DNA of 64,000 bases from Octopus vulgaris (taxonomy: Eukaryota): NCBI GenBank assembly GCA_951406725.2, contig OX597827.1, positions 29,698,001 to 29,762,000 of the forward strand, written 5' to 3'. How positions within the stretch are numbered: position 1 is the first letter of the stretch; the number at the start of each line of letters is the position of its first letter. Positions 2,662 through 63,686 of this stretch are shown in pieces. A program made the position numbers and the translations under genes. The notes below the pieces were generated by a model. That model had not been told where the DNA came from and searched no databases. It saw nothing but the letters and a program-made list of their open reading frames with translations.

Positions 2662-2762
<101 letters not shown>

Positions 2763-2799
2763 TAAATGAAGGAATGGAGTCGAACGATGATGTTAACAC

Positions 2800-2895
2800 A
2801 ATTCCTCTCGACACATGTTTCGAAGACAGCATGTTTTCATTCCAAAAGAATAAAGGGTGCATTATGCAATCTTCTCATCAGGAAAGAAAGGGAGC
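2800..2895 (-). ncRNA. Type I hammerhead ribozyme in the inverted pLTR copy
   Basis: Reverse complement of the 5565-5661 motif: CUGAUGA-GAAGA...UCUUC-GAAAC-AUGU-GUC. Confidence 0.8.
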
Positions 2896-3082
2896 CTCTC
2901 TCGACAACAGGACAAACAAAAATTTCGATGATTGCCTACATGGTAAACAAAGCGATAATGAGTGTTTTTTTAAAAAAACCGTTAGAAGAATTGACGTCAA
3001 AAATAGATAGTAGGAAGAGAAGGGATAAAGTAATAATAGGTAGGGAACAGTATGTTTGCTGTATGCATGGGAATGTGTGGCT

Positions 3083-4440
3083 GTGAAACTAAGCAGATTA
3101 TGGAGACTTATTGATTACAGATGAAGACGGAACCATTGAACCCTAGGCAACCCAGATTCATCTTAAAGGACCATAAACAGAACTTTCATACTAACCCAGC
3201 ATTGCGGCTCATATGCGCTTCCAGTTCAGACATCGGTACCCTTAGTAAATACATATTAGATAAGTATATCCCTATATTAATTAATAAATTAAAACTTAGC
3301 TTATGGTCCAATTCTGTTCAAGTCGTAGATTGGTTTACTTCTATTACTGATAAGGCCAACACTAAATTTATCCAATTCGATATATCTAGTTTCTATTCTT
3401 CAATCAACCCTATTATACTTAATATGCCCTATGGCACGCACACAATAAGGCAGGCCTCTCCAGGGAGGAAGTTAGTGTGATATTGACTGCTAGGAAATCT
3501 TTCATCCAGTCCGATAGCAAGTTGTGGGTCCGTAGAGACACCCCTAATGCGTTTGATGTACTAATGGGAAGTACAGACAGCGCCCAGATAGCCGATTTGG
3601 TCGGAATTTATATTCTTTATGAAATGGCCGACCAATTCCCGGACATCTGTGGAGGTCTTTATCGCGACGATTGTCTGCTTTACCTCCAAAACGTTTCGAA
3701 CCAAAAAATACAGGTTAAGAACAGATTAGTTAGGTTTTTTAGTAGAATGAGCTTGCGCATAGTTTTGACGATGAATTAACTAAAGCCAACTTCTTAGACA
3801 TTACCCTCAATCTGCAGAATAACTCATACTTCCCTTATCATAAACCTTCCACTAATCTTAAGTATATCAGCATTTTCAGTAATCATGCCAAGCCAATTAC
3901 CGATAATTTAGTTAAAAACATATCTCTGAGACTGTCCAAATTATCTGCTAATGTCGACATCTTTAACCAAAAGGCAGACTTCTATAACGCCGCCTTGTCA
4001 AGAGCCGGTTATAAGGAGAAAGTGTCATACATCAACCCAGTTCATTCTAAACCAACATCTGCTTCTCCAATAGTAAAGTTACTCGTAATAGGAATAAAGA
4101 TTTCAATTCTAATAGTGCCAGCAACCCTGTACATAAGATAAATTCTTTACGGACTAGGGGAGGTAAGCGCCATGCAACCCCAAATTTCCAACCCAGAAAT
4201 TTTCCCCTTACTATCACAAATAACACTAAGAACAATTCAAAGGCCACAAAAAACTGTATCTGGTTTGTAATACCTTTCGGAAAAGAAATTAAATCGAACC
4301 TTCCCTTACAGTTCCGTGAAGCCGTTGCTAGGAACTTTCCCAGAAATTCTAGATATTATTCTATTATCAATTCCCACAAGGTCAGAATAGCTTTCTCTAA
4401 CACTAGGAATCTTTCACAAATTCTTGCTAATTCCAAACCA
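3083..4440 (+). pseudogene. Penelope-type reverse transcriptase, frameshifted
   Basis: PLE RT motifs across three frames: FILKDHKQNF, LRLI, FIQFDISSFYSSI, FDVLMGS-D-AQIADLVG, GGLYRDD, followed by NFLDITLNL, PYHKP and SNH. Confidence 0.9.
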
Positions 4441-4707
4441 TCATACAATCATAATAATAAGAATAGTATTAATAGTAGCAGCATTAGTAGCAGCGAAAGT
4501 GTTAATAATGATAATATTAATAATAATATTAGTCGTGTTAATAACAATGGTAGTGTTGATGGTAACAACAATAACGGTATTATTGTCGGTGGTATTACTG
4601 ATTGTAATACCATTAATAATACTAATAATAATAGAAATAGTGTAGTTGTTAGCGCTAATAATAATAGTAACAACAATCATAACAAAAAAAACTTCGTCTC
4701 GATCTCG

Positions 4708-5124
4708 GTGGACAACCCCAACAGAATTAAATTTTTGTCTAGTAATTCTAAGATTAAGAATTCTATTTACCAGTGTAGAATTTCTTCCGGTACCGATGTC
4801 TTCTTCTATATAGGAGCGTCCACTTCCAAGTTATCCAATAGAATTTCAAACCACTACTCAACATTCAGGGATAATAAAAAACGACATAGCACAGGGCTAA
4901 GTAAATTTGTTTGGCGTCTTAAAGACAACAATATAACTTTCAAGTTAGATTGGTTCATACTGTCTGTATCCTTTCCTTTTGATAAGGGCAGGAGATTTTG
5001 TAACATTTGTAACTCTGAACTCTTCCATATTCTTTTCTCTAAGATTCCCCTAGTAAACACACTCATAGAAAAATCGTACAAATGTAAGCACTGGCAGAAA
5101 CACACTTTCTACTCATATAAATGA
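4708..5124 (+). pseudogene. GIY-YIG endonuclease domain of the PLE ORF (C-terminal, after an Asn-rich (AAT)n-like linker)
   Basis: SIYQC...FYIG...R..NH..TF...STGLSKFVWRLK...CNICNSE...LVN...KCKH. Confidence 0.9.
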
Positions 5125-5564
5125 TAACGATAGTCACTGTGGTTTGAACGATTAGCTTTACGTCCACCCCACTGCTATAGAGAAATTCTTTTCTAAGCCT
5201 TCGAACATTCTTTCAATCAACGTACCCTTCCCTCTCCACTTGTTCCTTTATACCTTCTCTTCCTACTATCTATCTTTGACGTCTGTCTCTCTCTCTCTCA
5301 CACACAATCACACACACATACACAAATGCAGTTATACACACACACACAAACACACGTACTCATTAACACAAGCACACACCCACACATTTCCATGCATACA
5401 GCAAACATACTGTTCCCTACCTATTATTACTTTATCCCTTCTCTTCCTACTATCCATTTTTGACGTCAATTCTTCTAACGGTTTTTTTTTTAAAAACACT
5501 CATTATCGCTTTGTTTACCATGTAGGCAATCATCGAAATTTTTGTTTGTCTTGTCGAGAGAAAC

Positions 5565-5661
5565 TCCCTTTCTTTCCTGATGAGAAGATTGCATAATGCA
5601 CCCTTTATTCCTTTGGAATGAAAACATGCTGTCTTCGAAACATGTGTCGAGAGTAAAGGAA
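5565..5661 (+). ncRNA. Type I hammerhead ribozyme in the 3' pLTR; predicted cleavage after GUC at ~5648
   Basis: CTGATGA core; stem II GAAGA-TTGCAT...ATGC-TG-TCTTC; GAAAC-ATGT-GTC; stem I ctttc with gagag. Confidence 0.85.
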
Positions 5662-5857
5662 TTTTGTTAACATCTTCGTTCGACTCCATTCTTTCATTTA
5701 TTCATATACAACACACAAATTTCTACACATGAACCCGGAGTTTCTACCCTTGACAGGTCGCTTCAACCGTGTTTTCTGACGTGAATTTGCTACCCAGGTT
5801 TCGGTTAAACGAATTTTCAATGCCGACGATAAACATAGGATAATTCATTCACCTACT

Positions 5858-5916
<59 letters not shown>

Positions 5917-9850: not shown

Positions 9851-9855
<5 letters not shown>

Positions 9856-10960
9856 AGATAAGAAAATGGAGAAATGCATCTAAATCAAATATCAATTACC
9901 AGATAATACTCAATCACATACTTTATTAAACCACCACATAAGAGACTGTAGGGTTAAATATAAAAAGCAGAACAAATCAGTGTACATAAAGGAATGTACA
10001 TAAAAAAGTGTACATAAAAGTGTAATGTTGTATGATAAGTAGAATATATATAAAAGAGAATATAAATATAAGTAAATATAAATATAAGTATAGATTACAT
10101 CTTACAGCTGTTTCGGCCATGTAGATAAGTATGTCTCATTTTACCAATATTAGCGTTTTATGGTAGGTCAATATATAGATATAAATGAGACATTTACAAA
10201 AATATCATAAGGCCTCTTCGGAGATTATGTAATATAAATCAGTCTTCATATATACCTACATGGGTGTGGGTACATACCCATAATACAACATATACATATA
10301 CATATGAGTGCATATACTCACACTCCTATACATATAAAAATATACATATACATAATGATATAAATAAATAATATAAATTAGTAAACATATATATGTGTTC
10401 CACATTCAACGTCTCAGTTTTTCGACTTATATTTATATTCTCTTTTATATATATTCTACTTATTATACAACATTACTCTTTTATGTACACTTTTTTATGT
10501 ACATTCCTTTATGTACATTGATTTGTTCTGCTTTTTATATTTAACCCTACAGTCTCTTATGTGGTGGTTTAATAAAGTATGTGATTGAGTATTATCTGGT
10601 AATTGATATTTGATTTAGATGTATTTCTCCATTTTCTTATCTTGTATTAGTAATTTGTGGTAGCAAGTATATCCAAAGGTAATGCAGTACGATCATTTCA
10701 TGCAACTCCATTTAATTTAAGAATGCAATCATTACTTAATTAAATTCTGTGTCTTTGTGCAGCTGAGGATTACTCTGCATTTTAAATTGATGTAAGGATT
10801 ACATTGTTCAATTAAATGGAGTTGCATGAAATGATCTTACTGCATTACCTCTGGATAACCTTGTTGGTTATTTTGATTTTAATCACCTTACTTTTAAATT
10901 GTATGGGTAATACCGTACTAAATTCTGGTGCCCCAAATTAAGTACCATATTCATCTGAAT
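9851..10960 (+). mobile_element. Non-coding fold-back element: inverted arm 9851-10072, sense arm 10425-10647, structured tail 10648-10960, within (TA)n
   Basis: ~220-bp near-perfect inverted repeat; HHR on the minus strand just inside the left arm; long hairpin in the tail. Confidence 0.85.
10095..10232 (-). ncRNA. Type I hammerhead ribozyme with ~100-nt stem II (CCGAAGA core variant)
   Basis: Minus strand: uuacauaaucu-CCGAAGA-GGCC...augucucauuu...aaaugagacau...GGCC-GAAAC-AGCU-GUA-agauguaau. Confidence 0.8.
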
Positions 10961-14141: not shown

Positions 14142-14536
14142 CTAGCAGTATCGCCCGGCGTTGCTCGGATTTGTAAGGGAAATAACTATATAAGCATTTT
14201 TAGAGATGTAAAGTATAATAGCCATCTCAATATGGCTAACCACAAAGGAGGGGGTGTTACTGTAGCTTTTTACGTTCTGAGATTTAATAATAATTTTTTA
14301 GAGAGTTACTTCCCTTATATATGCCAAAAATGCATTAAAATGGGAAAAATTGATGGTAAATTTTTTTTAAATCGTAGACTCATCGTAGACGCGCGCTAAT
14401 ACCCAGAAGGGCTCGATATGAATCACGACTATAAGATACCCGGTTTTGGTTAAACTGCACCACAAAATGTGGGAGTAGTTAGGAATCTAAATCGTAGGAG
14501 ACAAACAGCACACAACCTTACTTTTATATATAAAGA
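14142..14536 (-). mobile_element. Non-autonomous Helitron
   Basis: Minus strand starts A|TCTTTATATATAAAAG and ends with a GC hairpin (ccgagcaacgccggg) plus CTAG|T; AT insertion site, no TSD. Confidence 0.8.
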
Positions 14537-17638: not shown

Positions 17639-17965
17639 TTAATATTCCTGGCCCAGGGTGTTCAAACTTGGTCTAAATTTTTTGATGAAATAAAGTTCTT
17701 TATTTTGGCGTTGCGTGAAGGTTACGCTGTCACTGAATTTATAAAGTGGGTGAGTTGTAAATTTCGGATTTACATTTGCAGCACATCTATCTATGTGTTC
17801 GCTGACCGGTATTTTTCGGTATTCAGAGTTTCTAATTTGTGATTTATGCACCGCCATCCTGTTACGTAAGCTATTTTTTGTATGGCCTATATACTGCCTA
17901 TTGCAACTTGCGCATGTTAAGACGTAAATTAAGTTTTCTGATGCGCAGGTGTGAACTGATGGCCT
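17639..17965 (-). pseudogene. PLE GIY-YIG endonuclease with CxxC insert
   Basis: TCASENLIYVLTCASCNRQYIGHTKNSLRNRMAVHKSQIR...VSEH...KELYFIKKFRPSLN. Confidence 0.88.
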
Positions 17966-17967
17966 TG

Positions 17968-18026
<59 letters not shown>

Positions 18027-24953: not shown

Positions 24954-25233
24954 TTTCTCACTTTCTCTCACCTTCGACGGACTGGCATCCCGTCCAGGTG
25001 GGGAACCTATACGCGAAGGAAACAGGGAAACCGGCCCTTATGAGCCAGGCATGGCTTGAGAAGGAGCAAACAATCTATATATAACGTAAAGTATACTAGC
25101 CATCTCAATATGGCTAACCACTAAGGGTGGGTGTTACTGTAGCTTTTAGCCCCAGCTGGCTTTAGGCACACTTTCTGTGCCCTTATGATATTTGCAAAGG
25201 GAGGTCATCCCTCTCTCGCAAACCTAAGTGATA

Positions 25234-25277
25234 CGCACGGACTACAGTTTCGAGGTATTTGCCTCTTGTCAACGTAC
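25234..25277 (-). ncRNA. Decayed type I hammerhead ribozyme in a pLTR-like element (~25083-25300 plus ~30632-30840) split by the Tx1 LINE
   Basis: cguacg-UUGACAA-GAGG-caaaua-CCUC-GAAAC-UGUA-GUC-cgugcg; all three stems pair and the core differs from CUGACGA by two transitions. Confidence 0.7.
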
Positions 25278-25508
25278 GGTAATTACCGGTTTTCGGTGAA
25301 TAATTCTTTATTATGATTATAAAATCAGTACATAGAAGAACAATACAGGACATACATACAAAAAACAGTTAAGTGGTTCGTTTAAAAATTTCCAAAATAT
25401 ATGGATTATTCATTATACAAAAAACTGTATTTAAATTGTCCTTTGCATTGACTAATATAACATTACATTAGATTGAAATCTTACCGATATATTTTAAACC
25501 CCGGCAAC

Positions 25509-28931: not shown

Positions 28932-29006
28932 TGTCGGAGAGAGAGAGAAAAAATAAACTTACGGTTGGGACAGGGAGCATGACAGTTTAAATCTGCATGC
29001 TTCCCC

Positions 29007-30395: not shown

Positions 30396-30836
30396 TTCTC
30401 AAATTATGAGAACCAATTTTTCAATAAAAAAAATTACCCCGAAGGTAATAACAATGTTTATACACAGAATTTTCAGCCCCGTAGGGCGAAAATTACTGTC
30501 ATACAACGGACAACTGTTCAATTCACGAGCAAACACAAACAACGACGAACAAAAAACGAACTCACTCAACAAAATAGGCAGCTAACTTCTCAAAACGCAG
30601 ATGAAAGAGGGGTCCCTAGACGAGTCAAAACACCGGTTTTCGATGAAGAGAGACCTGTTTGCAAATATCTATTTAATGTTTTCCCAGTAACCACTGTCAC
30701 TGATTTCGAAAAACTGTCTGCAAGCAATAATAAATCTCTGATAATAAATCTATATATATATACTATATAAATTAGCAAAAAACCACCCTTTATCAATTCA
30801 AGTTTGTTCAATGTAAGTTTGGAATAATATTATTAC

Positions 30837-31692: not shown

Positions 31693-31973
31693 ACAACATT
31701 TTGTAAACTTCGGAAGCGTCGAATGTGTTCCGTATTTTAAAGACAAGAAGGTTATATTTCGAATGTAGTATAGCTGTGAAAACTTGACGAAGACTGTTGT
31801 CAGTGGGCCGTTTAAATTACTGGTGAAGTACTCAGCTGGGATATGAGGGGTGCGGGTTCGAATCCCGCGACTATCAGCTGACACCTTTTTTCCGTCTTAT
31901 TAGGGTAAATTATCTCATTTTTCTACTGTTTCCACGGCTATACTACGTTCGAAATATTACTTTCTTGTCTAGA

Positions 31974-31978
<5 letters not shown>
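31690..31978. mobile_element. Small fold-back element in (TA)n enclosing a tRNA-like module
   Basis: Arms agacaagaaggttatatttcgaatgtagtatagctgtgaaaac / gtttccacggctatactacgttcgaaatattactttcttgtct. Confidence 0.7.
31798..31891 (+). ncRNA. tRNA-like Pol III module (not a canonical tRNA)
   Basis: T-arm GCGGG-TTCGAAT-CCCGC; anticodon-like arm CTCA..TGAG; D-loop-like TGG; closing stem tgtcag/ctgaca; T6 terminator. Confidence 0.55.
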
Positions 31979-34579: not shown

Positions 34580-36184
34580 TAGTGATTATTTTGAGAGGGT
34601 CTTGCCGCCAATAAAACACACACACCGTTTATAATTCAATTTTGTTTTTATTATCAGTTAATTAGAAAATCAGTTAATAAATAAAATAATTATTTGCCGA
34701 ACGTCTTTTTCCACAGCCTATAACCTTATCGACACCTGCCCAGTGTTCGTAACTTGGAGTTATTTAATTGATGTTTATCTAAATGTGTGCCTCAAATTTT
34801 GATGCTGTAATGAGTAATTTTTGATAGATTTGACTGCAGTTTCTAGCTGGTCAAGCAATTATTTAGCAGTCCCATCATAGTTTTGTTTCCATGAGAATTA
34901 GAGATGTAAGTGAAATGAAATGATTTTAATCATTAACTCGAACCTACTTCGTCGTTTCACATCCATTTCGATAATAATAAGTATTTTATTAAGCAATGAA
35001 AGAAATGGGGCATGCGTATTCAGCTGTTCCATCGTTTGATCTTCCACGCTCATTTAATCAGCTTGTAAATGGCCGAGCATTCCACGGACATGTGTACCCT
35101 TAACGTGGTTCCCAGGAGTTAGTGAAGACACGTGGCTTAGTAATTAGAATATACAATTCACGGTCTTAAGTCGGTGAGCTGGCAGAATCGCTAGCACACC
35201 GGGCGAAATACTTAGCAGTATTTCGTCTGCCATTACGTTCTGAATTCAAATTCCGCCGAGGTCGACTTGGCTTTTCATCCTTTTGGGGAAGATAAATTAT
35301 GTACCGGTTACGCACTGGGTTCGAAGTAATCAACTTAATCCCTTTGTCTGTCCTTGTTTCTTCCCTCTATGTTTAGCCCCTTGTGAGTAATAAAGAAATA
35401 AGAATGTACGATTCATAGTCTTAAGGTTGTGAGTTCGATTCCTAGCGACACAGTATGTTCTTGAACAAGCCTTGCTCAAGTCCCTTCAACTAGCCTAAAA
35501 TGAGTTGTACCTGTACTTCAGAGAACCAGGCTCGTCACATCCTGTCGCAGAATGAGTAGATAACTGGCAAGTGGAGGAAAAATTATCAGAGCAGACGACG
35601 GAGTTTTCTTGACAGAGCGGAGGTTTTGCAGCCGATGCAATATTACAGTCACACTATTACGCAATATTACAGTCACACGCAATATTACAGTCACACTGTA
35701 ATATTAGCAAAAAACCATGAGCGATCCAATGAAAGAGAAACGTCATTATGCTTAAGTAGACAAGTGTGATCTCGAACCACCTTACGATTCTCTGAGCCCT
35801 TGTGCAACCTGCAAGAGATAGTACCCGATTGTATCTCAAATCACAACCCTACATTTTTGAAAATGTGAAACAGATGAGAGCATTTAGCCTGGTCACAGTC
35901 GACATGCTTTTTGATTAGAACCTGCTTGATCAGGGATGACTTAGGGCTAAAAGATAGATGATTCTTTCTTTCTCCAATAGGCACAAGGTTTGAAAATATG
36001 GTTGAAGGGCGAGTCAATTTCATTGCTACAGTATTTTATTTAACGTACTTTATTTTAGCGACCTTGAAAAAAATGAAAGGCAGAGTTAACCTCGGGATAA
36101 GAATTCAGAAGGCGAAGCCGGAAAAACTGCTGTGAAACATTTTGTCCGGCGTCATAATGATTCTACGAATTTGCTGCGTTACAC

Positions 36185-45083: not shown

Positions 45084-45091
<8 letters not shown>

Positions 45092-45440
45092 GTTGTATAC
45101 TGTCAATCTAACACGAACGTGACAGTAGGGGGTCACCACTGCTGTTTAGCCCTAGGAAGCATCGACGCCTCCTGATGGCATTGACACATTTTTCCTGTGT
45201 CCTTATATACATTTACGAAGGGGAGACAAATATTTGTCTCCCCTTCGTAAATGTATATAAGGACACAGGAAAAATGTGTCGAAGCCAACAGGAGGCGTCG
45301 ATGCTTCCTAGGGCTAAACAGCGGTGGTGACCCCGCCCCCCTACTGTCACGTTCGTGTTAGATTGACAGTATACAACCATTCTATCGCCCCATCAACGTA
45401 CATGTCTCTACGAGAGATTTAGAAATTTAGTATTTCTGAT
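45084..45440 (+). mobile_element. Fold-back element forming a ~300-bp spacerless palindrome plus tail; same family as 59163-59698
   Basis: Arms 45084-45230 / 45232-45385 centred on ggagacaaatatttgtctcc; tail atgtctctacgagagatttagaaat. Confidence 0.9.
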
Positions 45441-45453
45441 ATATATATATATA

Positions 45454-45876
<423 letters not shown>

Positions 45877-45902
45877 AAAAAAGCAACAAGAATGGATTAA
45901 AA

Positions 45903-45989
45903 TCTCGGTACGATCGTTTCGTACGAGGACATCTTTAATAAGCTACAAAAAATGCAGTGAATACAGATGGCTCGTACTCGTCAGCCGAA
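45903..45989 (-). ncRNA. Type I hammerhead ribozyme, inverted copy
   Basis: Reverse complement of 46832-46917. Confidence 0.85.
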
Positions 45990-46831
45990 AAGACATCAGA
46001 GAATTCCCAAACATCAAAAGGGGTAGATACAAAAGAGGTTGTAAGATTAACTGCATTGAAGAAAGTTCGATTCATGGAGATCCGATGAAAGGTTTTAAAC
46101 TTATAGAATTTGTGCATGTCTACATATAGCTCATATTGAATTTTTAATCAAGTTGTGTGAAGAGATTTAGGGTACAATCATGCGAAAATATCAGGGAATC
46201 CGAATGAGAAGCAACTTGTGTCCATCCCCTTAGCTTCCCCTTTCCTTTCTCTTTGATAGCTTTAATAGCAGTAACTGATTAAATTCCACTTCCTTCCTCC
46301 TCTCTCTGTGATTCTTGTAAAGTTCATTAACAACCTGCACCTCTACAATATAAGACTGTCATTTTGCTTCTCATCCGGATTCCCTGATATTTTCGCATGA
46401 TTGTACCCTAAATCTCTTCACAAAACTGGATTATGAACTATAAGGACATGCACATATTCTGTAAGTTCAAGACTTTTTATCGGATCTCCAAGAATCGAAC
46501 TTATCTGCGATTCTTGTAAATTTCAATAACAATCTGTTCCTCTACACGATATGACAGTCACTTTGCTTTTACTCAGACTTTCCTCTACATGATAAGGCAG
46601 TCACTTTGCCTCTTACTCGGATTTTCAGAAATTTTGCATGACTGTATCCGAAAATTTCTTCACACAACTTGATTAAAAATTCAATATGAGCTATATGTAG
46701 ACATGCACAAATTCTATAAGTTTAAAACCTTTCATCGGATCTCCATGAATCGAACTTTCTTCAATGCAGTTAATCTTACAACCTCTTTTGTATCTACCCC
46801 TTTTGATGTTTGGGAATTCTCTGATGTTTTT

Positions 46832-46917
46832 TCGGCTGACGAGTACGAGTCATCTGTATTCACTGCATTTTTTGTAGCTTATTAAAGATGTCCTCGTACG
46901 AAACGATCGTACCGAGA
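46832..46917 (+). ncRNA. Type I hammerhead ribozyme with perfect core; predicted cleavage after GUA at 46911
   Basis: tcgg-CTGACGA-GTACGAG...CTCGTAC-GAAAC-GATC-GTA-ccga; palindromic stem III ACGATCGT. Confidence 0.9.
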
Positions 46918-47064
46918 TTTTAATCCATTCTTGTTGCTTTTTTCCTATTTGTAATCACCCCACTTGTCGTATGGGTAACACCATATAGATTTCCGGTGCA
47001 TCCTAGTTAAGGACCATATTCATGTGAATTCTTTAGAATTCACTTGAATCTCAATTACTTAACC

Positions 47065-47115
<51 letters not shown>

Positions 47116-50057: not shown

Positions 50058-50121
50058 ATTTGGCTCAAAAGCAAATAGCAAGGCCATGTAGGGGGACATG
50101 GAGTTAAGTACAGGGTGGTGT

Positions 50122-53004
50122 TCATATAAAGAGTTCAGGACACTTGAGGTCAAGGGAGGCTTTGAACAAAGCGGTCGTCGGCATCTTCACCATCTCGTCT
50201 GGCAGCTTGTTCCACGGATCCGCAACCCGGACGGAGAAAGCTCCTCTCCGATTGAGATGAAATCGTCGCAGGTAGAGCTTTTCGGAATGACCCCGCAGCC
50301 GACGCTCTGGAGCAGGAGTGAAGAACAGCTCTTTCGAGAGGTTACACTTTCCGCTTATGATGCTGTGGGCGAGAATGAGATCACCACGGCGGCGGCGTTT
50401 TTCAAGAGAATAAAGGTCGAGCGTCCTCAGCCTTTCTTCGTAGGACAAATTTTTGAGACCATGAACCATGCGGGTAGCCAGCTTCTGGACTCTTTCGAGA
50501 TGCTGTATGTCTTTGAGGAGATAAGGAGAAGAGGCTTGAATCCCATACTCCAATATGGGTCTCACCAGCGTGACATAGAGTGGTAGGAATATGGCTGCTG
50601 TGAGCATTCCGAATGACCGTCGAATCAAGAACAGAATTCCGCGTGCTTTGTTGGCAGCATGGACGCACTGGGCCGAAGGCGAAAAGGAGGAATCCACCAA
50701 GATACCCAGGTCCTTTACCTGATCGGTCCTCTCCAGCAGCAGACGACCCGGCTCCAAATCAAGTTGAGTTGCAGGAGGAGAGCCAACAGGCAGATGACAG
50801 CACTTTGACACGTTCAGACACAGGTCCCAATCGTTAGACCACTTCCAAATTTGGTGGAGGCATCGACGAAGATCCTCTATATTACCGCGAGGAGCGACCA
50901 GTTTGATATCGTCGGCAAATAGAAGGGTGTGTTGCGTGAGGTCGTCGGGCAAGTCATTTATGAAGACTAAAAAGAACAAGGGCCCAAGCACTGAACCTTG
51001 AGGCACGCCACTGCTCGCACTGGAGACGTCGGACCGCGAACCATTAACTTGGACTTGGAAGGAGCGATCTGAGAGGAAGGCACCAACCCATCGTACAATA
51101 TCCGGATGGAAACTATATGCTTGAAGCTTGACAATTAATAGGCGGTGGTTTACCGAGTCAAAAGCTTTGGCAAAGTCCAATAAAACGATGTCAACAGCAT
51201 CACTATCATCGAGGATGCGCGTCACCAATTCTTCCATTACTAGTAAGTTGGTCAAGCATGATCTCTTCGGCACGAAACCGTGTTGGGAATCAGAGATAGA
51301 GGCTGTGTTTAGGAGGTGGAGCATCATACTTTTCTTAAGGATGGTTTCGAACATCTTGCTGATTATTGATGTAAGGGAAACCGGTCGGTAGTTAAGCGGG
51401 TCTTCGCGGCTCCCTTTCTTGAAAATTGGGCAGATTATCGCTGTTCTCCAGTCTGCAGGTATAACACCCGTCGCCAATGACATATTGAATAGTCGTGTTA
51501 AGGGCTCGCAGATGACCGGAGCCAACGCTTTGATAACCCGTGGGTGTATGCCGTCAGGGCCGTGACCCTTGTTGACATCGAGGCCTTGAATAACACGTTT
51601 GACTTCGTCCCGCGTGATGACCAATCGAAGCATTGGAGGTACCGATCTATCAACTGGAGGGGGTTCACGACCATCATCTTGTTTGAAAATAGTTGAAAAG
51701 GCCTCGGCAAATAATTGACTCTGTTGATAAGGGTCCTCAATCGATACGCCTGTTGAGTCTACCAACGTTGCAATCTGGTTGTTCAAGCGGGAATTCCGCT
51801 GGACATGGGCAAAGAAGGTTTTTGGATTGCTACTGGCATTTGCCGCGATTTTGTATTCATAACTGAAGCGTTCTTTCTTTTCAATTTTCACGGCTCGGTC
51901 TCGTTGAGTTTTGTACACCTCAAAAGCTGCAGTCGAATCCAGATTTTTGAATTCAGCCCCAGCAATATCTCTGAGTCGACGTTCTCGTTTAACCTTCTTC
52001 GTCACCCAGGGCTTGTGTTTCTTCTTGGGAAGCCCAACGGGAACTGCTTGGTCAGTCAAACAGATTACATATGCTTTGAGGGATGACCATAGTTCGTCAA
52101 CTGAGGACAACGTCATCAGGTATCGCCAGTCCAGAAGCGCGGAAGCCTCGGTTAGAATTTCAAGATTAATTGCAAAGAAGACTCTACGTGGCAGCGAAGT
52201 AGTCGTGGGCGTAGAAAAAGTTGTGTGCATGACGAACTTCAGGACCGCATGATCACTCTTGGCAAGAGGGGCGCACACAGATACGTCTGACACTGATCTT
52301 GGATAGTGGGAGAATACCAGATCTAGCATAGATGGCTGCTGCCCAGACCGATGCCTTGTCGGATATTCAACATGTTGCGATAGAAAACAATCTTCAGCCA
52401 CGTCAAGAAGGGCCTGGCCGAACCGGGAAGATGTTGTACAAATTGATGCGGGCCAATCGATCGTGGGAGCGTTGAAGTCTCCTACTACCAAACAGTCATG
52501 CGAAGCTGAAACGAATCTTATCGCTTCGAGTAAATGAGCATCGTCCTGGGGGTCGGCAAGAGGCGGCCTGTAGACAGCCAACACGGGCAGGCAAAACTCA
52601 GATAGGCTCAGCTTGCAATAGACGGCATCGAATTTTGTTGTAGGTTGAGCATTAGTGGGTAGAATACCGCTGGACGGTTTGTGCTCAGACTTAACATACA
52701 CAGCAACACCTCCACCTCGCCTTTTTCCTCTGTCACATCTGAAAAGAACGTAGCCCTGCAGGTGGATTTCTGAGTCCTTTACTGCTTGAGTCAGCCAAGT
52801 CTCGGTGATAGCTATCACATCAGGGGAGTCACGTATGGCCAGTGTAAATAGTTCACTGAACTTTGGGAATAAGGAGCACGAGTTGGTGTAGACGATGCTG
52901 AGCTGTGAAGTCTGAGGGGCGGGAGTTGGGGAACAAGCAGAATAAGGGGTATCAGAGATAGCATCGTTGACGGGGGTATCAAGTTCACTTCGATTTGCCC
53001 TCAC
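50122..53004 (-). CDS. LINE ORF2 protein: AP endonuclease plus reverse transcriptase, 960 codons, uninterrupted
   Basis: YTN, IAITETWL, VYRPP, VGDFN, SDH; GPDGIHP, NYRPVSLTS, QHGF, DFAKAFDSV, SGVPQGSVLGP, FADD, KDLG, LRGH. Confidence 0.95.
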   Translation of the reverse strand: MRANRSELDTPVNDAISDTPYSACSPTPAPQTSQLSIVYTNSCSLFPKFSELFTLAIRDSPDVIAITETWLTQAVKDSEIHLQGYVLFRCDRGKRRGGGVAVYVKSEHKPSSGILPTNAQPTTKFDAVYCKLSLSEFCLPVLAVYRPPLADPQDDAHLLEAIRFVSASHDCLVVGDFNAPTIDWPASICTTSSRFGQALLDVAEDCFLSQHVEYPTRHRSGQQPSMLDLVFSHYPRSVSDVSVCAPLAKSDHAVLKFVMHTTFSTPTTTSLPRRVFFAINLEILTEASALLDWRYLMTLSSVDELWSSLKAYVICLTDQAVPVGLPKKKHKPWVTKKVKRERRLRDIAGAEFKNLDSTAAFEVYKTQRDRAVKIEKKERFSYEYKIAANASSNPKTFFAHVQRNSRLNNQIATLVDSTGVSIEDPYQQSQLFAEAFSTIFKQDDGREPPPVDRSVPPMLRLVITRDEVKRVIQGLDVNKGHGPDGIHPRVIKALAPVICEPLTRLFNMSLATGVIPADWRTAIICPIFKKGSREDPLNYRPVSLTSIISKMFETILKKSMMLHLLNTASISDSQHGFVPKRSCLTNLLVMEELVTRILDDSDAVDIVLLDFAKAFDSVNHRLLIVKLQAYSFHPDIVRWVGAFLSDRSFQVQVNGSRSDVSSASSGVPQGSVLGPLFFLVFINDLPDDLTQHTLLFADDIKLVAPRGNIEDLRRCLHQIWKWSNDWDLCLNVSKCCHLPVGSPPATQLDLEPGRLLLERTDQVKDLGILVDSSFSPSAQCVHAANKARGILFLIRRSFGMLTAAIFLPLYVTLVRPILEYGIQASSPYLLKDIQHLERVQKLATRMVHGLKNLSYEERLRTLDLYSLEKRRRRGDLILAHSIISGKCNLSKELFFTPAPERRLRGHSEKLYLRRFHLNRRGAFSVRVADPWNKLPDEMVKMPTTALFKASLDLKCPELFI

Positions 53005-54090
53005 ATAACTTTCCCTGTCAGCACTACAGCATGGGACCAGAGGTAGGACTTGATTATCTGTCCATCTTGGATTCGTAAACCCTTCTCTCCCATTTGTTTC
53101 CTCATCTTTAGTTCGGATATTAGGTTTCTCCGGCGAATTCTCTCTCTTAGTGAGTATTCCTCGCGAAAACCCATATTGGGGTCCTCCCAGGCATGCGTCT
53201 GAGCTCTGTTCAAAAAGACTGAAGTCTCCCGATCGGAAGAAAAGATTACCCTTATTGGGCGTGGTCTAGTATCTGAGGTTGGGTTCGCTTGGAATCTTCC
53301 TAGCCGAGCGACCTTATGGACACTGACATTTTCGTTCACAGAGAACAATTCTCCAACTAAAATGGAAACAAAATTAATGCCATCTTTTAGGCGGTTTATG
53401 CCTGTATCACAGGTGGATTCAGCTTTACCATAAATTATTGCTGATCTTGAGTGGGCAAAATGTTCTCTACTATGAGCTGCGGTATTCGATTCTTCATTGG
53501 AAGATTTCGAAAGGGTGGTTTCATAGCCATCGGACTTATGTCGGCCTGTGGGGTCGATCGGAATGGGTTTAGTGGTCATAATTTTCCCGCCTGGTTTGGA
53601 ACTGCACTGCCTCTTCTTCGGTTTGGGGGAGCACCACTCCCCAGATGAACTCATATCGAGATCGTTCAGAATTGGTTGAGCAATGGCATTAATGGGAAGG
53701 ACAAGTGAGGGAGAATCCAAACAGATTTTATCGTGATCAGGTTTCATAGCTAAATCTGCCCCACTGGAGTTTTGACTACGTTTCTTCTTTTGGGGAGAAC
53801 AACGGTCTTCAGGAACGATCATGTGCAGAAACGACCGCCGGTTCCTTCGCCTTCTTTGGCCGCTTCGATTTTGTTCCCTTCGGATTGGACGTCTCCAGGG
53901 AAGAAATCAAGGGTGACTCTGCGTCAACAGGAGACTGTTTATTCAGTAAGAGAGCAACAACAGACTTTAGGTGCTCGACCTCTTGTTTGAGCAACAGCAA
54001 CTGCTCGTTGAGCTGACTATTGGTAGGACCATCATCTTGATGAGAAGCCCTTCTTGCAGATCTCAGTTTCGATCCGTAGGTAGCTGACAT
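53001..54090 (-). pseudogene. CR1-type ORF1 with one frameshift near 53815
   Basis: N-terminal coiled coil (LNEQLLLLKQEVEHLK); C-terminal RLGR...RPRPIRVIF...ERIRRRNLISELK..GEKGLRI, typical of CR1/L2 ORF1. Confidence 0.75.
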
Positions 54091-57000
54091 GATGGATGGT
54101 TGACTAAAAACAATCTTCTATGGGCTCTAGGACAAATCGGAGTTAAATCAGGAACAAAAAACAGGTGCAATCCTTGTAGGAGTAGGCAACAGCAGACAAA
54201 ATCTGAGAGAGTTTGGGCTGAGCCGAATCACAATCCAAGATTGAAAGCAGACGGTGCAACGAGTCGGGAACCCTTCCTAATTGTCTGAAGCAGCTTTAGG
54301 ATAAGGGATAGTATGTCCAACTTTAGAATATTGATATGCATGTAAAATGTTCCACACGATTAAATATCATTTGACGTGCCATTTAGTACTTCAATAATTG
54401 CATCTGTGTGAATAATGTGTTTATGTGCGAGAAGGCACATGTTTTTGTCTATCGTTAATTTAGATTATTATTTTTTTCTTTTTTTTCTCACGTTTTTCCC
54501 TTTTAAAGTATTTCTTTTTAAAGTAAATTATACGTTGGAAGGAGGGCTGAGGGTTTGTTTTTATTGTAAATTCTCTTTTCTCCCAACACAGAGAAAGAAA
54601 GGGATTTTTCGTTGGTGCCACCGATATAATTCAGACACGGGGAAAGACATCTCGGTGTCATCGTCAACTTGAATGTTTCTAATTGTAGCGATAGTAGTAA
54701 CAGCAGTAAATTCTGATAGCAGCAGTAGCAATAGCTCATAAAGTGAGATGAAGAACGATCGGTCAAAGAGAGTACAAATTGTCCGCAATAGTGTTGATGG
54801 AATTTGCGAACAGTGACCTTGACTTTGAGAAAAATCAAAGGAGGGGTCGACTATAAACAGTACTTGTGAATAGAGTCATGTACGAGCAGGGCGAAACTAT
54901 AAATAGTATTTTTTCTTTTTTTTTTTTCTTCTTATTCTCCACGTGTTTAATAATGTGATTGCAATAAAAGGTATGTCTGCATATTTCGGGTAGTCAAGAA
55001 GAAAATAAAGGTTAGCTGGTGTTTATGTCCATACTTTTAACTGTCATGATTGTATCAAATGTCCGCAGATAAATACCTTTAGATTAAGAGAAGTATTCAC
55101 AATGAGCCCCACTTGCTTCTTATTGCTACGAGATTTACAAAACTTTTAGTTTATGAAGCTAAAGTTGTTTTTACAGTAACGCAAAAAACTATATTGGTCT
55201 AACCGTAATATGTTTTAAAATAAGTATATACAACTCACTCACCCGTTCAGAAACCTGGAGAACCGTCATACAACTTCATGATCAAAATATGTTTTGCTAC
55301 TGAAGAATAAAAGTATTGATGGTTTCAGTATAGACTTGTACAGTATTGCACATATATTTTAAATAGTTTTTAAAGTGTATATATACGTTAATCCAAGCAT
55401 TTATAAGTTTGACCAGTTGTTTTCAACGGCCATCATCATCATAAATTCCTCGTAGTGAACTTTATGTTACCTATTTGATAAAAGTGATATCATAAGAAAA
55501 TATTGGAAAATACTTTGTAAATGACAATAAAGACACAGCACTTTACTGATTGGCCGGATATAAACATTAAAATCAACTGGATTTTTAAAACCAGCAGGAA
55601 GTTCAGACACATGCTATATCGTAAAAACTCGTTACTATTGAAATACTATCGTGTTGGCATGCCATTCAATGAATGACTTCCTGCAACAAACTTCAAGCAA
55701 AGAAAAAGCAAAGTTTATCTGTAATATAAAAAAAAATATTTATATCGTATTTCCAGTTTAGCGTTCACATTTTTTGTTGCATCTTTCCCTGGTGCATACC
55801 CTGCGACAAAATACATCCGTTAAGTAAATATGTGTGTGTGCGTGTACATACATATACACATATATATGTGTATATATGTATATATATATTCATATATATA
55901 CATATATACATATAGATACATATATACATATACATTTATATACATATATATATGCATGTGTATAAATATATATGTACACATACATACACACGCAAGCACA
56001 CACACACATAGCGTTATATAAGTACAATGTCGAAGGCACCCATACACAGACAGACACACGTCGATTAGATGGATGTTTGGATGAAAGGCGGAATTTGAAC
56101 TCAGAACATAAAGACAGACGAAATACCCCTAAGCATTTCGCCCAGCGTGCTAACGTTTCTTATTTCTTTATTGCCCACAAGGAGCTAAACATAGAGGGGA
56201 CAAACAAGGACAGACAAAAGAATTAAGTCGATTATATCAATCCCAGTGCGTAACTGGTACTTAATTAATCGACCCCAAAAGGATGAAAGGCAAAGTCGAC
56301 TTCGACGGAATTTGAATTCAGAACGTAAAGACAGACGAAACACCTATTTCGTTACTGCCCACAAGGGGCTAAACACAGAGAGGACAAACAAGGACAGACT
56401 TAGGTATTAAGTCGATTATATCGACCCAAGTGCGTAACTGGTACTTATTTAATCGACCCCGAAAGGATGAAAGGCAAAGTCGACCTCAGCGGAATTTGAA
56501 CTCACAACATAACGGCAGACGAAATACCGCTAAGCATTTCGCCCAGCGTGCTAACTTTTCTGCCAGCTCGCCGCTTTACAGATATCGTACAAGACAGAAA
56601 ACACACGAATATGCACGTGGTCTCCTGACTTGCTAGAAACAGCAGGCAAACACTATCATACTGTTTATAATTAAGGTGACGTTAGTGATGTAGTGCGGTT
56701 TGTAGAGAACATTTTGATGGCACGGAGCGGCCATTTCCTAAACGTTTGTTAGCAGTAGTTGAAAATGTGCTGCGTTTAAAGAAAGGTGCATCCGAAACGC
56801 ACGCTGCACCACGGGACCAGGCCAGCAATTTTGAAGTGAGTGTTTAAGTTGATACTACCAATTTCAGTATTTGACTGGTATTATATTTATATCGACCCAT
56901 GAGGGATAAAAAGCACATTTCACCTCGGCAGGATTTGAACTCAGGACGTAAAGACTGAGAAAGGATGAACCAAAGCATTTTTTACCCTCTACCGTTTCCG

Positions 57001-57616: not shown

Positions 57617-57969
57617 ATCTTTCTTTCCTCTCCTGAGCGTCTGCTAATACATTACATGTACCACGTCCTCACGTTGTTGTTTTTTTGCGGTTTGTTCTTT
57701 TTGGAGTTACTATATGTGTGTGTGTGTGTATGTAGAGAGAGAGAGAGAGAGAGAGAAATAATTGTATAGGGTATATTCATACATAAGGGCACATAAGCTA
57801 TTATGCTTATATGCCTTTGTGACCTTAAGTACAATTGTACCCTGTACGATTATATATCTCTATAAATGTATTTTACCCAAAGGGTCTTTGTATGCTGGCC
57901 ACTAATAAATTCATTAATTTTAATGATTTTATCCTCTAATTATGTTATATATATATATATGTATATATA

Positions 57970-58722
57970 TACATAAAGGGTGAAATATAATTAATTTAAT
58001 AAAATTAATAAATTTCACCTAGTAGTTTTTTCGGTATGGAAATGACAATATTCGGTAAGAATTATATTAATTATAATAAAGGGTTAATTGCAACAAGTTG
58101 CTCAAAACCACATACCGAAAATATTAGAAATAGCAGCCAAATAGGTCACTATTACTACTACTAGAAAAAATAAGTCTCCACAAACAAACAGAATGTGTAA
58201 CCCGTATATGGTAAAGAGGAAGAAGACAACGAAATCCCAGCCTATTGGATTAATTATGGACGAATTCGTTTCTGGATTAGAATCGAAAGTTCATTTCCTT
58301 GTCAACATAATATTTCCTATAAATCTAGAAATGCTAGGAAAAAAATCACCCATTACATCAACTCGATCAGGCGACATCGAACGATCTAACGGTCTGCCAG
58401 CATCCCCACATTTATATAGACAGGCGAATTCGTATCTCCCTCCAAAATCACCACGTAAGTTACAAAAACAGTACCACCGAAACGAAGTTTCGTAGATTCA
58501 TTGTATGGGAGTAATAGTATTCAATACACATAAAGGGTGAAATATAATTAATTTAATAAAATTAATAAATTTCACCTAGTAGTTTTTTCGGTATGGAAAT
58601 GACCATTAATCCAATAGGCTGGGATTTCTTCTTCCTCTTTACCATATACGGGTTACAAATTCTGTTTGTTTGTGGAGACTTGTTTTTTCTAGTAGTAGTA
58701 ATAGTGATCTATTTGGCTGCTA
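57970..58722 (-). mobile_element. Non-coding PLE-like element: partial tandem (78-bp direct repeats at ~57970 and ~58527, unit ~557 nt) plus inverted arm 58605-58722
   Basis: acataaagggtgaaatataattaatttaataaaattaataaatttcacctagtagttttttcggtatggaaatgac occurs twice; 58130-58255 is the reverse complement of 58605-58722. Confidence 0.82.
58254..58310 (-). ncRNA. Decayed type I hammerhead ribozyme
   Basis: uuaug-UUGACAA-GGA...UCCa-GAAAC-GAAUUC-GUC-cauaa; palindromic stem III. Confidence 0.6.
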
Positions 58723-59022
58723 TGTATATATATATATATTTGTGTGTCTGTGCTTGTCTTCCCACCATCTCTTCACAACCGACGTCCCCATAACTTAGCG
58801 TTTCAGCAAAAGATACAGATAGAATAATTACTAGGCTTAGAAAAAATAAGTCCTGTGGTTTGGAGGGGGGGGGGCGATTTGTTCGACTAAAAGTGGTGCT
58901 CCAACATGGCCGCAGTCGAATGACCGAAACAAGTAAAAGAATAAAACAGTAAAACACTCCTATCCTTGCGTCGTTTCGATTGATCTGAGACCCTAAGCAA
59001 CCACCACTGCTACGACGACGAC

Positions 59023-59058
<36 letters not shown>

Positions 59059-59162
59059 GCGCACACATACATACATACATACATACATACATATGTGTAT
59101 GTGTGTGTGTTTGTAGCTGTATATATATATATATACATATACATATACATACATATATATAT

Positions 59163-59698
59163 ATAGAATGGTTGTATACTGTCAATCTAACAAGAACGTG
59201 ACAGTAGGGGGTACACCACCGTTGTATAGCCCTAGGAGGCATCGAACGCCTCCTGACACCTTCGACACATTTTTTCCCTGTGTCCTTATATACATATACG
59301 AAGGGGAGACAAACACCCCCAACCGCCGGAACTGCATCTAGGGACACCGTGTTTCAGGATCATTGTCCTTCATCGGCCTAGAGTAGCAGACACCGGTCGG
59401 CTGGTGATATCTGTCTGGACTTCGTATCTGTATATATATAAACTCAGTGAAGTCTATTCACTGATTATCAAACACCCCCGGCAGTTGGGGGTGTTTGTCT
59501 CCCCTTCGTATATGTATATAAGGACACAGGGAAAAAATGTGTCGAAGCTGTCAGGAGGTGTTCGATGCCTCCTAGGGCTATACAACGGTGGTGTACCCCC
59601 TACTGTCACGTTCTTGTTAGATTGACAGTATACAACCATTCTATCGCCTCACCACCGTACATCTCTCTACGAGAGATTTAGAAATTCAATATTTCTTA
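59163..59698 (+). mobile_element. Fold-back element: arms 59163-59328 / 59478-59644, HHR in the spacer, short tail
   Basis: ~165-bp inverted repeat; homologous to 45084-45440; (TA)n flanks. Confidence 0.9.
59332..59389 (-). ncRNA. Type I hammerhead ribozyme (CCGAUGA core variant)
   Basis: cugc-uac-ucuagg-CCGAUGA-AGGA-caauga-UCCU-GAAACA-CGG-UGUC-ccuaga-u-gcag; all stems pair and stem I has an internal loop. Confidence 0.88.
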
Positions 59699-61496: not shown

Positions 61497-62039
61497 GAAT
61501 TTGACACTTTGTTTAAATGGAAAAGAAAACACACTATCCCATCAAAAATAAAGTGTTTTAAAATATCAGAAAATATCAACTACATTATTGATCGAAAATT
61601 ATGAGGGCGGCGAACTGTCAGAAACCTTAGCACGCCAGGCGAAATGCGTAGCCGTATTTCGTCTGCCGTTATGTTCTGAGTTCAAATTCCACCGATGTTG
61701 ACTTCGCCTTTCATCCTTTTGGGGTCGATTAAATAAGTACCAGTTACGCACTGGGTCGATATAATCGACTTAATCCGTTTGTCTGTCCTTGTTTGTCCCC
61801 TCTATATTTAGCCCCTTGTGGGTAGTAAAGAAATAAGAAACGTTAACGCACCGCGCAAAATGCTTTACGATGTTTGGTCCGCCCTTACGTTCTGAGTTCG
61901 AATTCCACCAAGACAGCTTTGCCTTTCATCTTTTCGGGATCGATAAATTAAGTACCAGTTAAGTACTGGGGTCGATGTAATCGACTAGTCCCTTCGCTAC
62001 AAATTTCAGGGCTTGTGCCCTATAGTACGAATGATTATT

Positions 62040-62390
62040 GATGGTAAATTACGGCTTACTCAAAGTAGCCGCCCTCAGCTTACACCACGGCCTCAAGATG
62101 AACCCGGTGTATGGTGCATGTGAATCTCATTGTGTCTAAGAAGATCTTCAAACACTTTCCTAATCTTGGCTTCCACTTCGGCCTTTATGTTTAGGCAGAG
62201 CGGTTGTTGAGTCTTTCTCAACCATGATCCATGCATAGTAATCCGTGAGATTACAATCAGGGGCATTAGGAAGCCAGAAAATGGGGCTGGTGAAATTGTA
62301 TAAATTTTCCAGTGACCACTTCTGATTCTTATCGGACGTATGACAAGGAGCCGAATCCTACTGCCACACATACGGCCTTCCAGCAGCGGA
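62040..62390 (-). mobile_element. Tc1/mariner-superfamily (maT-like) transposase C-terminal fragment
   Basis: Minus strand GRPYVWQ*DSAPCHTS...FWLPNAPDCNLTDYYAW. Confidence 0.75.
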
Positions 62391-63686
62391 AGGTGGAATT
62401 TGAACTCAGAACGTAACGTCAGACGAAATATCGGTAAGAATTTCACCCGACGTGCTAACGTTTCTTATTTCTTTATAGCCCACAAGAGGCTAAACATAGA
62501 GGGGACAAACAAAGACAGACAAACAGATTAAGTCGATTACATCGACCCCAGTGCGTTACTGGTACTTAATTTATCGACCCCGAAAGGATGAAAGACAAAG
62601 TCGACATCGGCGGTATTTGAACTCAGAACGTAAAGGCAGACGAAATACCTATTTCTTTACTACCCACAAGGGGCTAAACACAGGTGGAACAAACAAGGAC
62701 AGACAAACGAATTAAGTCGATTATATCGACCCCAGTGCGTTACTGGTACTTATTTAATCTACCCCGAAAGGATGAAAGCCAAAGTCGACCTCGGCGGAAT
62801 TTGAACTCAGAGCATAACGACAGATGAAATACCGCTAAGAACTTCGCTCGACGCGCTAACTTATCTGCCAGCTCACCACCTTATGAATATAAAGAATATT
62901 GTGGGTAAACAAATCGTCACAAATTACAAAAAGTTTCTAAAACACAGAGAAAAGCAAAAAAGAATATCATGTAATAATTAACTGTAAATTGTTGACAACA
63001 TACTTCTTTAATATGGATGTCTAAATATACCTATATGTATGTGTATAAGTACATCTTTATACAGCTGTGTGTATGAATATATGTGCATGTATCTATGTAT
63101 ATAGGTTAATAAGTAGAGCGAGAGAGGGGGGAGAGAGGTTATATTCTCAAAGGTTGTTTATTATACCCCTTGAATGTCAAGCCCAACCCTGACCAAAATC
63201 AGTGTTTACTTATCAAGCTTATCAAGCCATGGACACATAATGGTTCACTTGTCGTCAATGCATTTACCTTAATAGTCATTACTCGAGGTGTTGTGTTACA
63301 AGAAAGTAATGATTAGTTGATTGTACCTGCTGTCAGTTTTTCACACTTTAATTGTAAATCACGAAATGTTCTGAAGGAATTCCACATTTCTTTTCTTAAA
63401 TTGGGTTAGTAGAAGACGATAGACCTCTAAGATGACCTATAAGTGTATGCAACATTAATCTTTATTAATCACTGAAGGTATTGAATATGATTTTAATCAC
63501 TTCACTACTGCAGAATGTTGTTTTATATATGACATAAAGCTGGTGTTCAACTGTGGTTTTATAGCGTTAAGCAAATGAGAATTAAATGTTACTCTGAATA
63601 AGATAGACAACTGTCCTTCTCCGGTTACATTCCCTAATTGTCTGGTAAGTGTCATTAGACGCTTATCTGATCTCACATACGGAGAT

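What the first reader, a model, noticed from the sequence alone, without database searches (positions are those of the whole stretch)
58254..59490. Sense arms start just downstream of the predicted ribozyme cleavage site
Seen: in three elements the inverted arm runs through the whole HHR while the sense arm begins only ~3-30 nt 3' of the predicted scissile bond (58605 vs GUC at ~58259; 59478 vs GUC at ~59343; 10425 vs GUA at ~10103). Inference: the sense arm is cDNA that ran off the 5' end of a self-cleaved RNA, while the inverted arm came from an uncleaved, multimeric or circular template. That would be a genomic footprint of ribozyme activity and of a two-primer integration mechanism. Two other elements (2755 and 45873) keep the HHR in both arms, so the rule is not universal.
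Basis: partly seen in the sequence, partly recalled or inferred. Interest (0 to 1): 0.7.

Follow-up and report, generated by a model that had tools for sequence, protein, structure and literature searches.

The report
Head-to-head Penelope retrotransposon insertions with ribozymes
These are ordinary back-to-back insertions of a known kind of animal jumping gene that carries a self-cutting RNA motif; the idea that one copy stops where the RNA cut itself fits a few cases here but did not hold up in a second set of elements.

Summary
The three elements are real head-to-head (inverted-pLTR) insertions of Penelope-like retroelements (PLEs) in (TA)n, with genuine type I hammerheads (HHR). The short arms start +5 (or +1), +14 and +30 (or +14) nt after the scissile bond. 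The 'sense versus inverted' rule fails: both arms read sense outward, and the short arm is the tail-less one at 58605 but the tailed one at 59478. An unselected sibling (45084-45385) starts at +30; another related copy starts at +93; 8 arms read through. In-window clustering is marginal (p 0.02-0.11, post hoc). In an independent set of HHR elements from metagenome contigs, 4 of 14 partner arms read through, and of the other 10 none starts in +1..+20 and 1 in +1..+31, against about 3 expected. Public contigs show many family copies bridging the site, yet two single-contig tandem joints fall at +3 and +16. The architecture, priming on both strands at two RNA sites, and circular or multimeric templates are already published or proposed. 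Verdict: known kind; run-off from cleaved RNA is at most a minor, unproven route (about 20%).

The parts
57967..58603 (-). Element A long arm: non-coding partial tandem, 557-nt unit plus 83 nt of the next unit; 3' end at (TA)n
   Evidence: direct repeat 57967-58049 = 58524-58606, 97.6%
58253..58311 (-). HHR of A: 6-bp stem I, core with U3-A8 swap, palindromic stem/loop III, N17 at 58259; stem II out of register by one base
   Evidence: U3-A8 covariation described for PLE HHRs in PMC4209133
58605..58723 (+). Element A short, tail-less arm; starts +5 (or +1 with a 3-nt slip) after the scissile bond; ends at (TA)n
59163..59468 (-). Element B long, tail-less arm; reads through the HHR; 3' end at TAT microhomology with (TA)n
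   Evidence: public contigs cover the upstream part as family sequence (table 8)
59337..59382 (-). HHR of B: stem I 6 bp, core with U4C, stem II 4 bp, near-palindromic stem III, N17 at 59343
   Evidence: in family contigs the only listed core variant is N7 (59372), and both halves of a compensatory change at stem I pair 1 occur (59342, 59377)
59469..59479 (.). 11-nt templated (snap-back) insertion at the B arm-arm junction, complementary to 59487-59497
59478..59697 (+). Element B short arm (starts +14) to 59644, then the ~52-nt tail to (TA)n
9851..10424 (-). Element C long, tail-less arm with a long-loop-II HHR (C3 10221, U4C, N17 10103)
10425..10647 (+). Element C short arm, starts +30 (or +14)
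45084..45438 (.). B': sibling of B (88-90% identical), a perfect palindrome with both arms starting +30; tail on the right arm
2755..5859 (.). Element D: inverted pLTR 2755-3085(-) plus a 5'-truncated, frameshifted Hydra-type PLE on + (RT to C-terminal GIY-YIG, pLTR 5375-5708, tail); intact HHR in both arms (N17 2810 and 5648)
45872..47065 (.). Element E: arms 45872-46214(-) and 46606-46948(+) plus tail; intact HHR in both arms (N17 45909 and 46911)
25081..25278 (-). Solo HHR-bearing arm (N17 25240, same U3-A8 core as A); no inverted partner found nearby
14208..14270 (-). Copy related to the 25240 element; homology starts +93, a miss for the proposed rule (may be another subfamily sharing only the 3' part)

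Best explanation
These are standard inverted-pLTR insertions of PLE-mobilised, mostly non-autonomous elements, probably driven by Hydra-clade PLEs like D. The PLE protein nicks both strands of a (TA)n target and primes two cDNAs from internal RNA sites near the element's 3' end, one site giving the tail and one not (shown in vitro for another PLE; inferred here). Each cDNA stops after a variable, usually short distance, and the two 3' ends are joined head to head by microhomology or snap-back end joining (the snap-back insert is seen in B; the repair pathway is inferred). Templates are mostly uncleaved, multimeric or circular RNA, so arms often read through the HHR. Because the HHR lies only 40-250 nt from the priming site and arms are typically 50-350 nt long, some arms stop shortly downstream of it by chance. 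The HHR is probably under selection at family level, but its cleavage leaves no dominant footprint in arm ends.
For: Architecture matches published PLE insertions: inverted 5'-truncated copy, tail on one end, (TA)n targets (PMC8557442 passages; window). D's RT piece finds 700-800-aa ORFs with the Hydra-clade motifs. Both-strand nicking and two RT start sites are published, and HHR mutants do not alter insertion in vitro (PMC11167929). 8 of 14 window arms with a known HHR register read through, including all 4 with an intact consensus core. Independent set: 14 of 35 HHR loci have a clear head-to-head partner, starting at -190, -88, -42, -19, +24, +39, +46, +47, +54, +59, +61, +68, +71, +74; 0 of 10 in +1..+20 and 1 of 10 in +1..+31 (expected 1.9 and 2.9). 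A run-off share of 30% or more would give this with P<=0.01. 9 of the 32 listed contig pieces bridge B's site with 31 or more letters on each side, in all 4 runs.
Against: Four of five downstream-stopping events in the window start within +31 (p 0.05-0.11; 0.014 on the most favourable readings). A can be read as starting exactly at +1. Of 5 goes-back or opposite-strand joints listed for family B, two lie at +3 and +16 and two 5-13 nt upstream of the site (single contigs). The independent set comes from other hosts and older copies (alignments roughly 75-93% identical), so it may not speak for these families. Two weak partners left out of the 14 lie close to the site (L046 at about -6 to +17, L073 at +35), and a direct upstream copy in L046 starts at +17.
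Confidence: 0.68

Rival explanations
1. Run-off footprint as a real but partial route: a share of templates are HHR 3' cleavage products (5'-OH ends). RT runs off their end or jumps from it to another RNA, and end joining trims 0-30 nt, giving arms and tandem junctions that start just after the site.
For: Window starts at +1/+5, +14, +14/+30 and +30. Tandem joints at +3 and +16, the second with 21 nt of tail between the copies (tables 5, 5c). B's HHR core is invariant in family contigs except N7, with compensatory stem I variants. A templated insert at B's junction shows end processing that could blur +1. Precedent: R2 5' junctions track the ribozyme cleavage site (PMC3774820 abstract).
Against: No peak among 10 downstream-stopping partners in the independent set. 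Intact HHRs in D and E were read through 4 of 4 times. The +93 miss. Starts are scattered, not at +1. Joints rest on one contig each at 80% likeness and sit beside a hypervariable segment (59317-59338) where alignments break. No pile-up in table 6. No reads at the site in Anolis RNA-seq.
Confidence: 0.2
2. Single-cDNA fold-back: one cDNA stalls, folds back on itself and is extended back toward the target, so the inverted arm is a copy of the first strand and no second RNA-primed event is needed. Breakpoints then follow local hairpins and microhomology, not the ribozyme.
For: B' is a perfect palindrome with a 2-nt centre, and A has a long tailed arm with a short tail-less arm, both as fold-back predicts. 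A snap-back hairpin sits at B's junction. Several other near-perfect palindromes lie in the window.
Against: In B, and probably C, the tail-less arm is the longer one and holds sequence absent from the tailed arm, which a fold-back of the tailed cDNA cannot supply. Both-strand priming is shown in vitro.
Confidence: 0.08
3. Post-insertion erosion: long perfect inverted repeats were unstable and lost the inner part of one arm later, so present starts say nothing about the RNA.
For: An 11-nt templated insert at B's junction fits repair at any time; instability of long palindromes is general knowledge (recalled).
Against: Arms of B and C are still 98% identical with clean ends, and the perfect palindrome B' has survived.
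Confidence: 0.04

Closest known systems
Penelope-like elements, Hydra clade (C-terminal GIY-YIG; PMC8557442)
   Same: Inverted 5'-truncated copy next to the main copy, tail on one end, (TA)n targets, canonical HHR near the 3' end; D has CxxC and CxH around the EN's conserved E and N, and its homologs have RWR, DKT and CxCX5C.
   Different: A, B, C and E show no coding link to an ORF; tails here run about 52 to 160 nt against the 30-40 nt described; C, D and E have HHR loop II of about 40-90 nt.
Poseidon PAc of Anolis, in vitro mechanism (PMC11167929)
   Same: Two RT start sites bracketing the tail, both strands nicked and extended, AT-rich targets, HHR upstream of the start sites.
   Different: That work did not describe inverted products or 5' breakpoints in the parts read; it found unprocessed RNA to be the dominant substrate, against run-off.
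Non-LTR retrozymes (PMC7229834, PMC7761336; bioRxiv 10.64898/2026.07.22.740005)
   Same: Non-coding, type I HHR, more-than-unit tandem structure in A, PLE-dependent mobility proposed.
   Different: A's unit is 557 nt (typical 150-350) and holds one HHR only; no array with two HHR units and no circular RNA was shown here.
R2 retrotransposon HDV-like ribozyme (PMC3774820)
   Different: R2's ribozyme is at the element's 5' end and defines full-length copies; here the HHR lies near the 3' end and most arms read through it.
L1 twin priming (recalled, not read)
   Same: Two primers give an inverted insertion.
   Different: In L1 the two cDNAs copy non-overlapping parts of one RNA; here both arms copy the same 3' region.

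Membership tests
Penelope-like elements | RT plus GIY-YIG endonuclease in one ORF | tested here: met
   Element D only: RT piece 3423-3776 has 1276 hits at E<=0.001; C-terminal piece aligns to the EN end of the 759-aa homolog P0005. Pfam did not recognise D or 6 of 6 homologs as RT/GIY-YIG; the assignment rests on motifs.
Penelope-like elements | pLTRs in tandem or inverted arrangement, 5'-truncated | tested here: met
   A (tandem and inverted), B, B', C, D, E
Penelope-like elements | Tail on one end only | tested here: met
   B and B' share a ~52-nt tail; D, E and A have longer one-sided extensions; C's is obscured by an adjacent palindrome
Penelope-like elements | Type I HHR with palindromic stem/loop III in the pLTR | tested here: met
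   A is weak (stem II out of register); Rfam listed no hammerhead among the 150 of 301 matches shown
Penelope-like elements | A, B, C descend from or are mobilised by a given autonomous PLE | tested here: inconclusive
   No DNA homology of 50 nt or more between A, B, C and D in the window; no genome held
Hydra clade | RWK-like and DKT motifs, CxCX5C linker, CxxC and CxH in EN, (TA)n insertion | tested here: inconclusive
   CxxC, CxH and (TA)n present in D; RWR, DKT and CxCX5C present in 4 of 4 homologs fetched, but D is truncated before the first two and its linker is Asn-rich; no tree built
Non-LTR retrozymes | Tandem units each with an HHR (two or more) | tested here: not met
   A has 1.15 units and one HHR; B and C show no tandem unit
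Non-LTR retrozymes | Expressed linear monomer and circular RNA | not testable with these tools
   only assembled contigs were offered
Active hammerhead ribozyme | Self-cleavage after N17 | not testable with these tools
   indirect only: conservation pattern in family B; fold z-scores -1.2 to -3.1
Ribozyme-defined 5' junction (R2-like) | Genomic 5' ends pile up at the cleavage site | tested here: inconclusive
   marginal in the window, not met in the independent set, two supportive single-contig joints

The most novel reading that the evidence does not exclude
In these families a measurable share of insertions is templated by HHR-cleaved RNA, so arm starts and tandem junctions pile up at +1 to +30. 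This would be the first genomic evidence that PLE hammerheads cut in vivo during retrotransposition, and it would link template-end jumping to pLTR formation.
Probability: 0.2. Interest if true: 0.68.

Novelty: new member of a known kind. Interest (0 to 1): 0.3.

Why it matters
The in vivo role of PLE hammerheads is an open question (stated in PMC8557442 and PMC7761336 passages). A breakpoint peak at the cleavage site would answer part of it from genomes alone. Family B is abundant (504-1790 contigs laid per run on 315 nt), so the test is cheap once an assembly is at hand. As the evidence stands, the locus is a tidy example of known PLE architecture and the footprint claim is unproven, with the one independent test negative.

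Tried and rejected
Whole genome: none held, so no genome-wide breakpoint plot. Rfam scan: only microsatellite-driven miRNA matches among the 150 of 301 rows shown. A first strict HHR scan found only B because loop II was capped; the relaxed scan found the rest. An exact family-B pattern found 0 matches in metagenome contigs. An HHR pattern in viral contigs gave 4 loci, none with a partner arm. Sequencing runs: no RNA holder listed and no raw reads, only contigs; this is no evidence on expression. Depth profile: I compared local maxima. The fall across the cleavage interval (0.36-0.58) was close to that expected from the downstream interval (0.43-0.62; ratio 0.83-0.97), and the steepest fall lay 50-70 nt upstream of the site. 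The tool states that contig depth cannot rank parts of a stretch, and the dips coincide with variable segments, so I do not count this for either side. Rows dropped in the independent set: of 116 loci, 81 were not in the HHR group; of the 35 kept, 17 had no partner above noise, and L046, L067, L073 and L100 had weak or tail-only matches (scores 42-50; shuffled controls up to 32.5) and were left out. L083 and L048 have atypical flanks; L048's partner was placed on L101 coordinates. The search for homologous proteins found nothing for D's RT piece. Earlier findings: three look-ups, all empty. Other palindromes (343-544, 10664-10863, 18292-18553, 45450-45682, 31733-31978) could not be scored because no HHR register is known for them. 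Rejected: reading A's core as CpG decay, since the same U3-A8 core recurs at 25272 and is a described covariation.

Full report
Setting. The window is AT-rich, microsatellite-dense animal DNA; its likeness to cephalopod genomes is my recall and comes from no call. No whole genome is held.

The hammerheads are real. A relaxed type I scan gives 6 sites at score >=8 against 0.1 in 30 Markov controls. Five are B (N17 59343) and both arms of D (2810, 5648) and E (45909, 46911); one is a microsatellite artefact. C (N17 10103) scores 6 and needs a loop II of about 90 nt; its fold places stems I and II as drawn. A (N17 58259) scores only 2: stem I is 6 bp and stem III is palindromic, but stem II is one base out of register. 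Its core carries U3 and A8, the covariation reported for PLE HHRs (PMC4209133, results and discussion read), and the same core recurs in a seventh HHR at 25240. For B, contigs from 4 public runs list, within the core, only a variant at N7, plus both halves of a compensatory change at stem I pair 1 (not shown on one molecule) and a one-base loss that makes stem III a perfect palindrome; no row at U4 suggests U4C is family-wide, though 3 rows were not shown. This points to selection on the motif; cleavage itself was not testable.

Observation. The short arms start at +5 (A; or +1 with a 3-nt slip), +14 (B) and +30 (C; or +14 if a 16-nt duplication is discounted). The labels do not hold. Both arms read sense outward and end at (TA)n, usually through a TAT microhomology. 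What distinguishes them is the tail. In B the tailed arm is short; in C probably too. In A the tail-less arm is short, and the long arm is a partial tandem of a 557-nt unit plus 83 nt. In all, 8 of 14 arms with a known register read through, and 6 arms (5 events) stop downstream.

Is the clustering more than chance? Under uniform truncation, A+B+C give p 0.024-0.043, the five events 0.05-0.11, and the two unselected events 0.43-0.59; the most favourable readings give 0.014. This is suggestive and post hoc.

Independent test. 35 form a group of short HHR elements with the same head-to-head habit; their hosts are unknown to me. 14 of 35 have a clear inverted partner. 4 read through (-190, -88, -42, -19) and 10 start at +24 to +74. 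None of the 10 falls in +1..+20 (1.9 expected) and 1 in +1..+31 (2.9 expected); a run-off share of 30% would give this with P 0.01. Limits: older copies, uncertain alignment ends, possibly shared samples, and four weak partners left out, two of them near the site. Direct upstream partners start at +17 (L046) and +44 (L073).

Family B in public contigs. 1790, 1167, 648 and 504 contigs were laid. 9 of the 32 listed pieces bridge the scissile bond with at least 31 letters on each side (4119 pieces not shown). Table 6 lists no pile-up. The listed loose ends near the site are diverged family sequence that continues into the ribozyme (24 of 258 shown). Seven joints are listed, each from one contig per run: two internal skips, and five that define a 5' boundary, at +3, +16 (with 21 nt of tail between the copies), -5/-71 (opposite strands), about -13, and +154. 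The +3 and +16 joints are what template jumping from a cleaved end would give, but they are few and lie by a hypervariable segment. The depth profile is not counted (see Tried and rejected).

What drives them. D is a 5'-truncated, frameshifted PLE: its RT piece has 1276 relatives, and four long ones fetched show RWR, DKT, CxCX5C, CxxC and CxH, the features given for the Hydra clade, which inserts into (TA)n and carries canonical HHRs (PMC8557442 section 11). D's C-terminal piece aligns to that endonuclease end. A direct link from D to A, B or C was not shown.

Mechanism. Shown elsewhere: a PLE protein nicks and extends both strands, starts at two internal RNA sites that bracket the tail, is predicted to be a dimer, and does not need HHR cleavage in vitro; no RNA-seq reads began or ended at the site (PMC11167929, main text read; its supplements were not read and may bear on 5' ends). 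Seen here: outward-reading arms, one-sided tails, a more-than-unit arm in A, and an 11-nt snap-back insert at B's junction. Inferred: two cDNAs of variable length are joined head to head by microhomology-type end joining (pathway recalled). With the HHR only 40-250 nt from the priming site, chance stops near it are common. I give this 0.68, partial run-off 0.20, fold-back 0.08 and later erosion 0.04.

Comparison with print. Inverted 5'-truncated copies and one-sided tails: PMC8557442 (passages). Paired HHRs on opposite strands 100-700 bp apart, and circular more-than-unit templates: PMC4209133. Retrozyme circles: PMC7229834 and PMC7761336 (passages); retrozymes as non-autonomous PLEs: bioRxiv 10.64898/2026.07.22.740005 (first part). 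Ribozyme-set 5' junctions: R2, PMC3774820 (abstract only). Searches listed no paper that maps PLE 5' breakpoints to the HHR site, judged from titles and abstract starts; the library lacks most subscription papers.

Verdict. The elements are new members of a known kind. The two-primer and multimer ideas are in print; the run-off footprint would be new but is unproven, and the one independent test was negative. Interest 0.3; 0.68 if the footprint proves real (probability about 0.2).

Noticed in passing
window 10864-10960 and 46949-47030: The tail of the palindrome at 10664-10863 resembles the tail of element E although their arms are unrelated; tails may hold the shared RT-initiation signal.
   Followed up: partly
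window 343-544, 10664-10863, 18292-18553, 31733-31978, 45450-45682: Further short head-to-head palindromic insertions without a recognised HHR; two sit directly against the ends of C and B', suggesting nested insertion at (TA)n ends.
   Followed up: partly
window 10103-10221(-), 2810-2881(-), 45909-45984(-): HHRs with unusually long loop II (about 40-90 nt, with an inner hairpin); short-stem descriptors would miss them.
   Followed up: partly
window 59376-59370(-) and 10221-10215(-): Two unrelated families share a U4C core variant; in B it appears family-wide. Effect on cleavage unknown.
   Followed up: partly
window 17639-18031(-): A GIY-YIG endonuclease fragment (Pfam PF01541, E 1e-6) of another PLE type, ending at a microsatellite.
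   Followed up: no
window 25509-30398(-): Long ORFs with APE-like endonuclease, RT and an upstream zinc-knuckle ORF: a near-complete LINE (family by recall).
   Followed up: no
window 50058-53906(-) and 15405-16212(+): A 1047-aa LINE ORF2 with ORF1, and a 98% identical 3' fragment 34 kb away.
   Followed up: no
window 56085-56578, 61606-61986, 62390-62886, 35164-35404: A dispersed repeat with a 184-nt tandem unit.
   Followed up: no
L048, just after the HHR: The HHR-bearing arm jumps from N17 to about +90 of its relative L101; a short shared word at both ends suggests a microhomology deletion.
   Followed up: partly
window, elements B, B', D, E and palindromes at 10664 and 45450: The tail lies on the right-hand (+) arm in most elements of this window; A is the exception. 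Small numbers, possibly chance.
   Followed up: no
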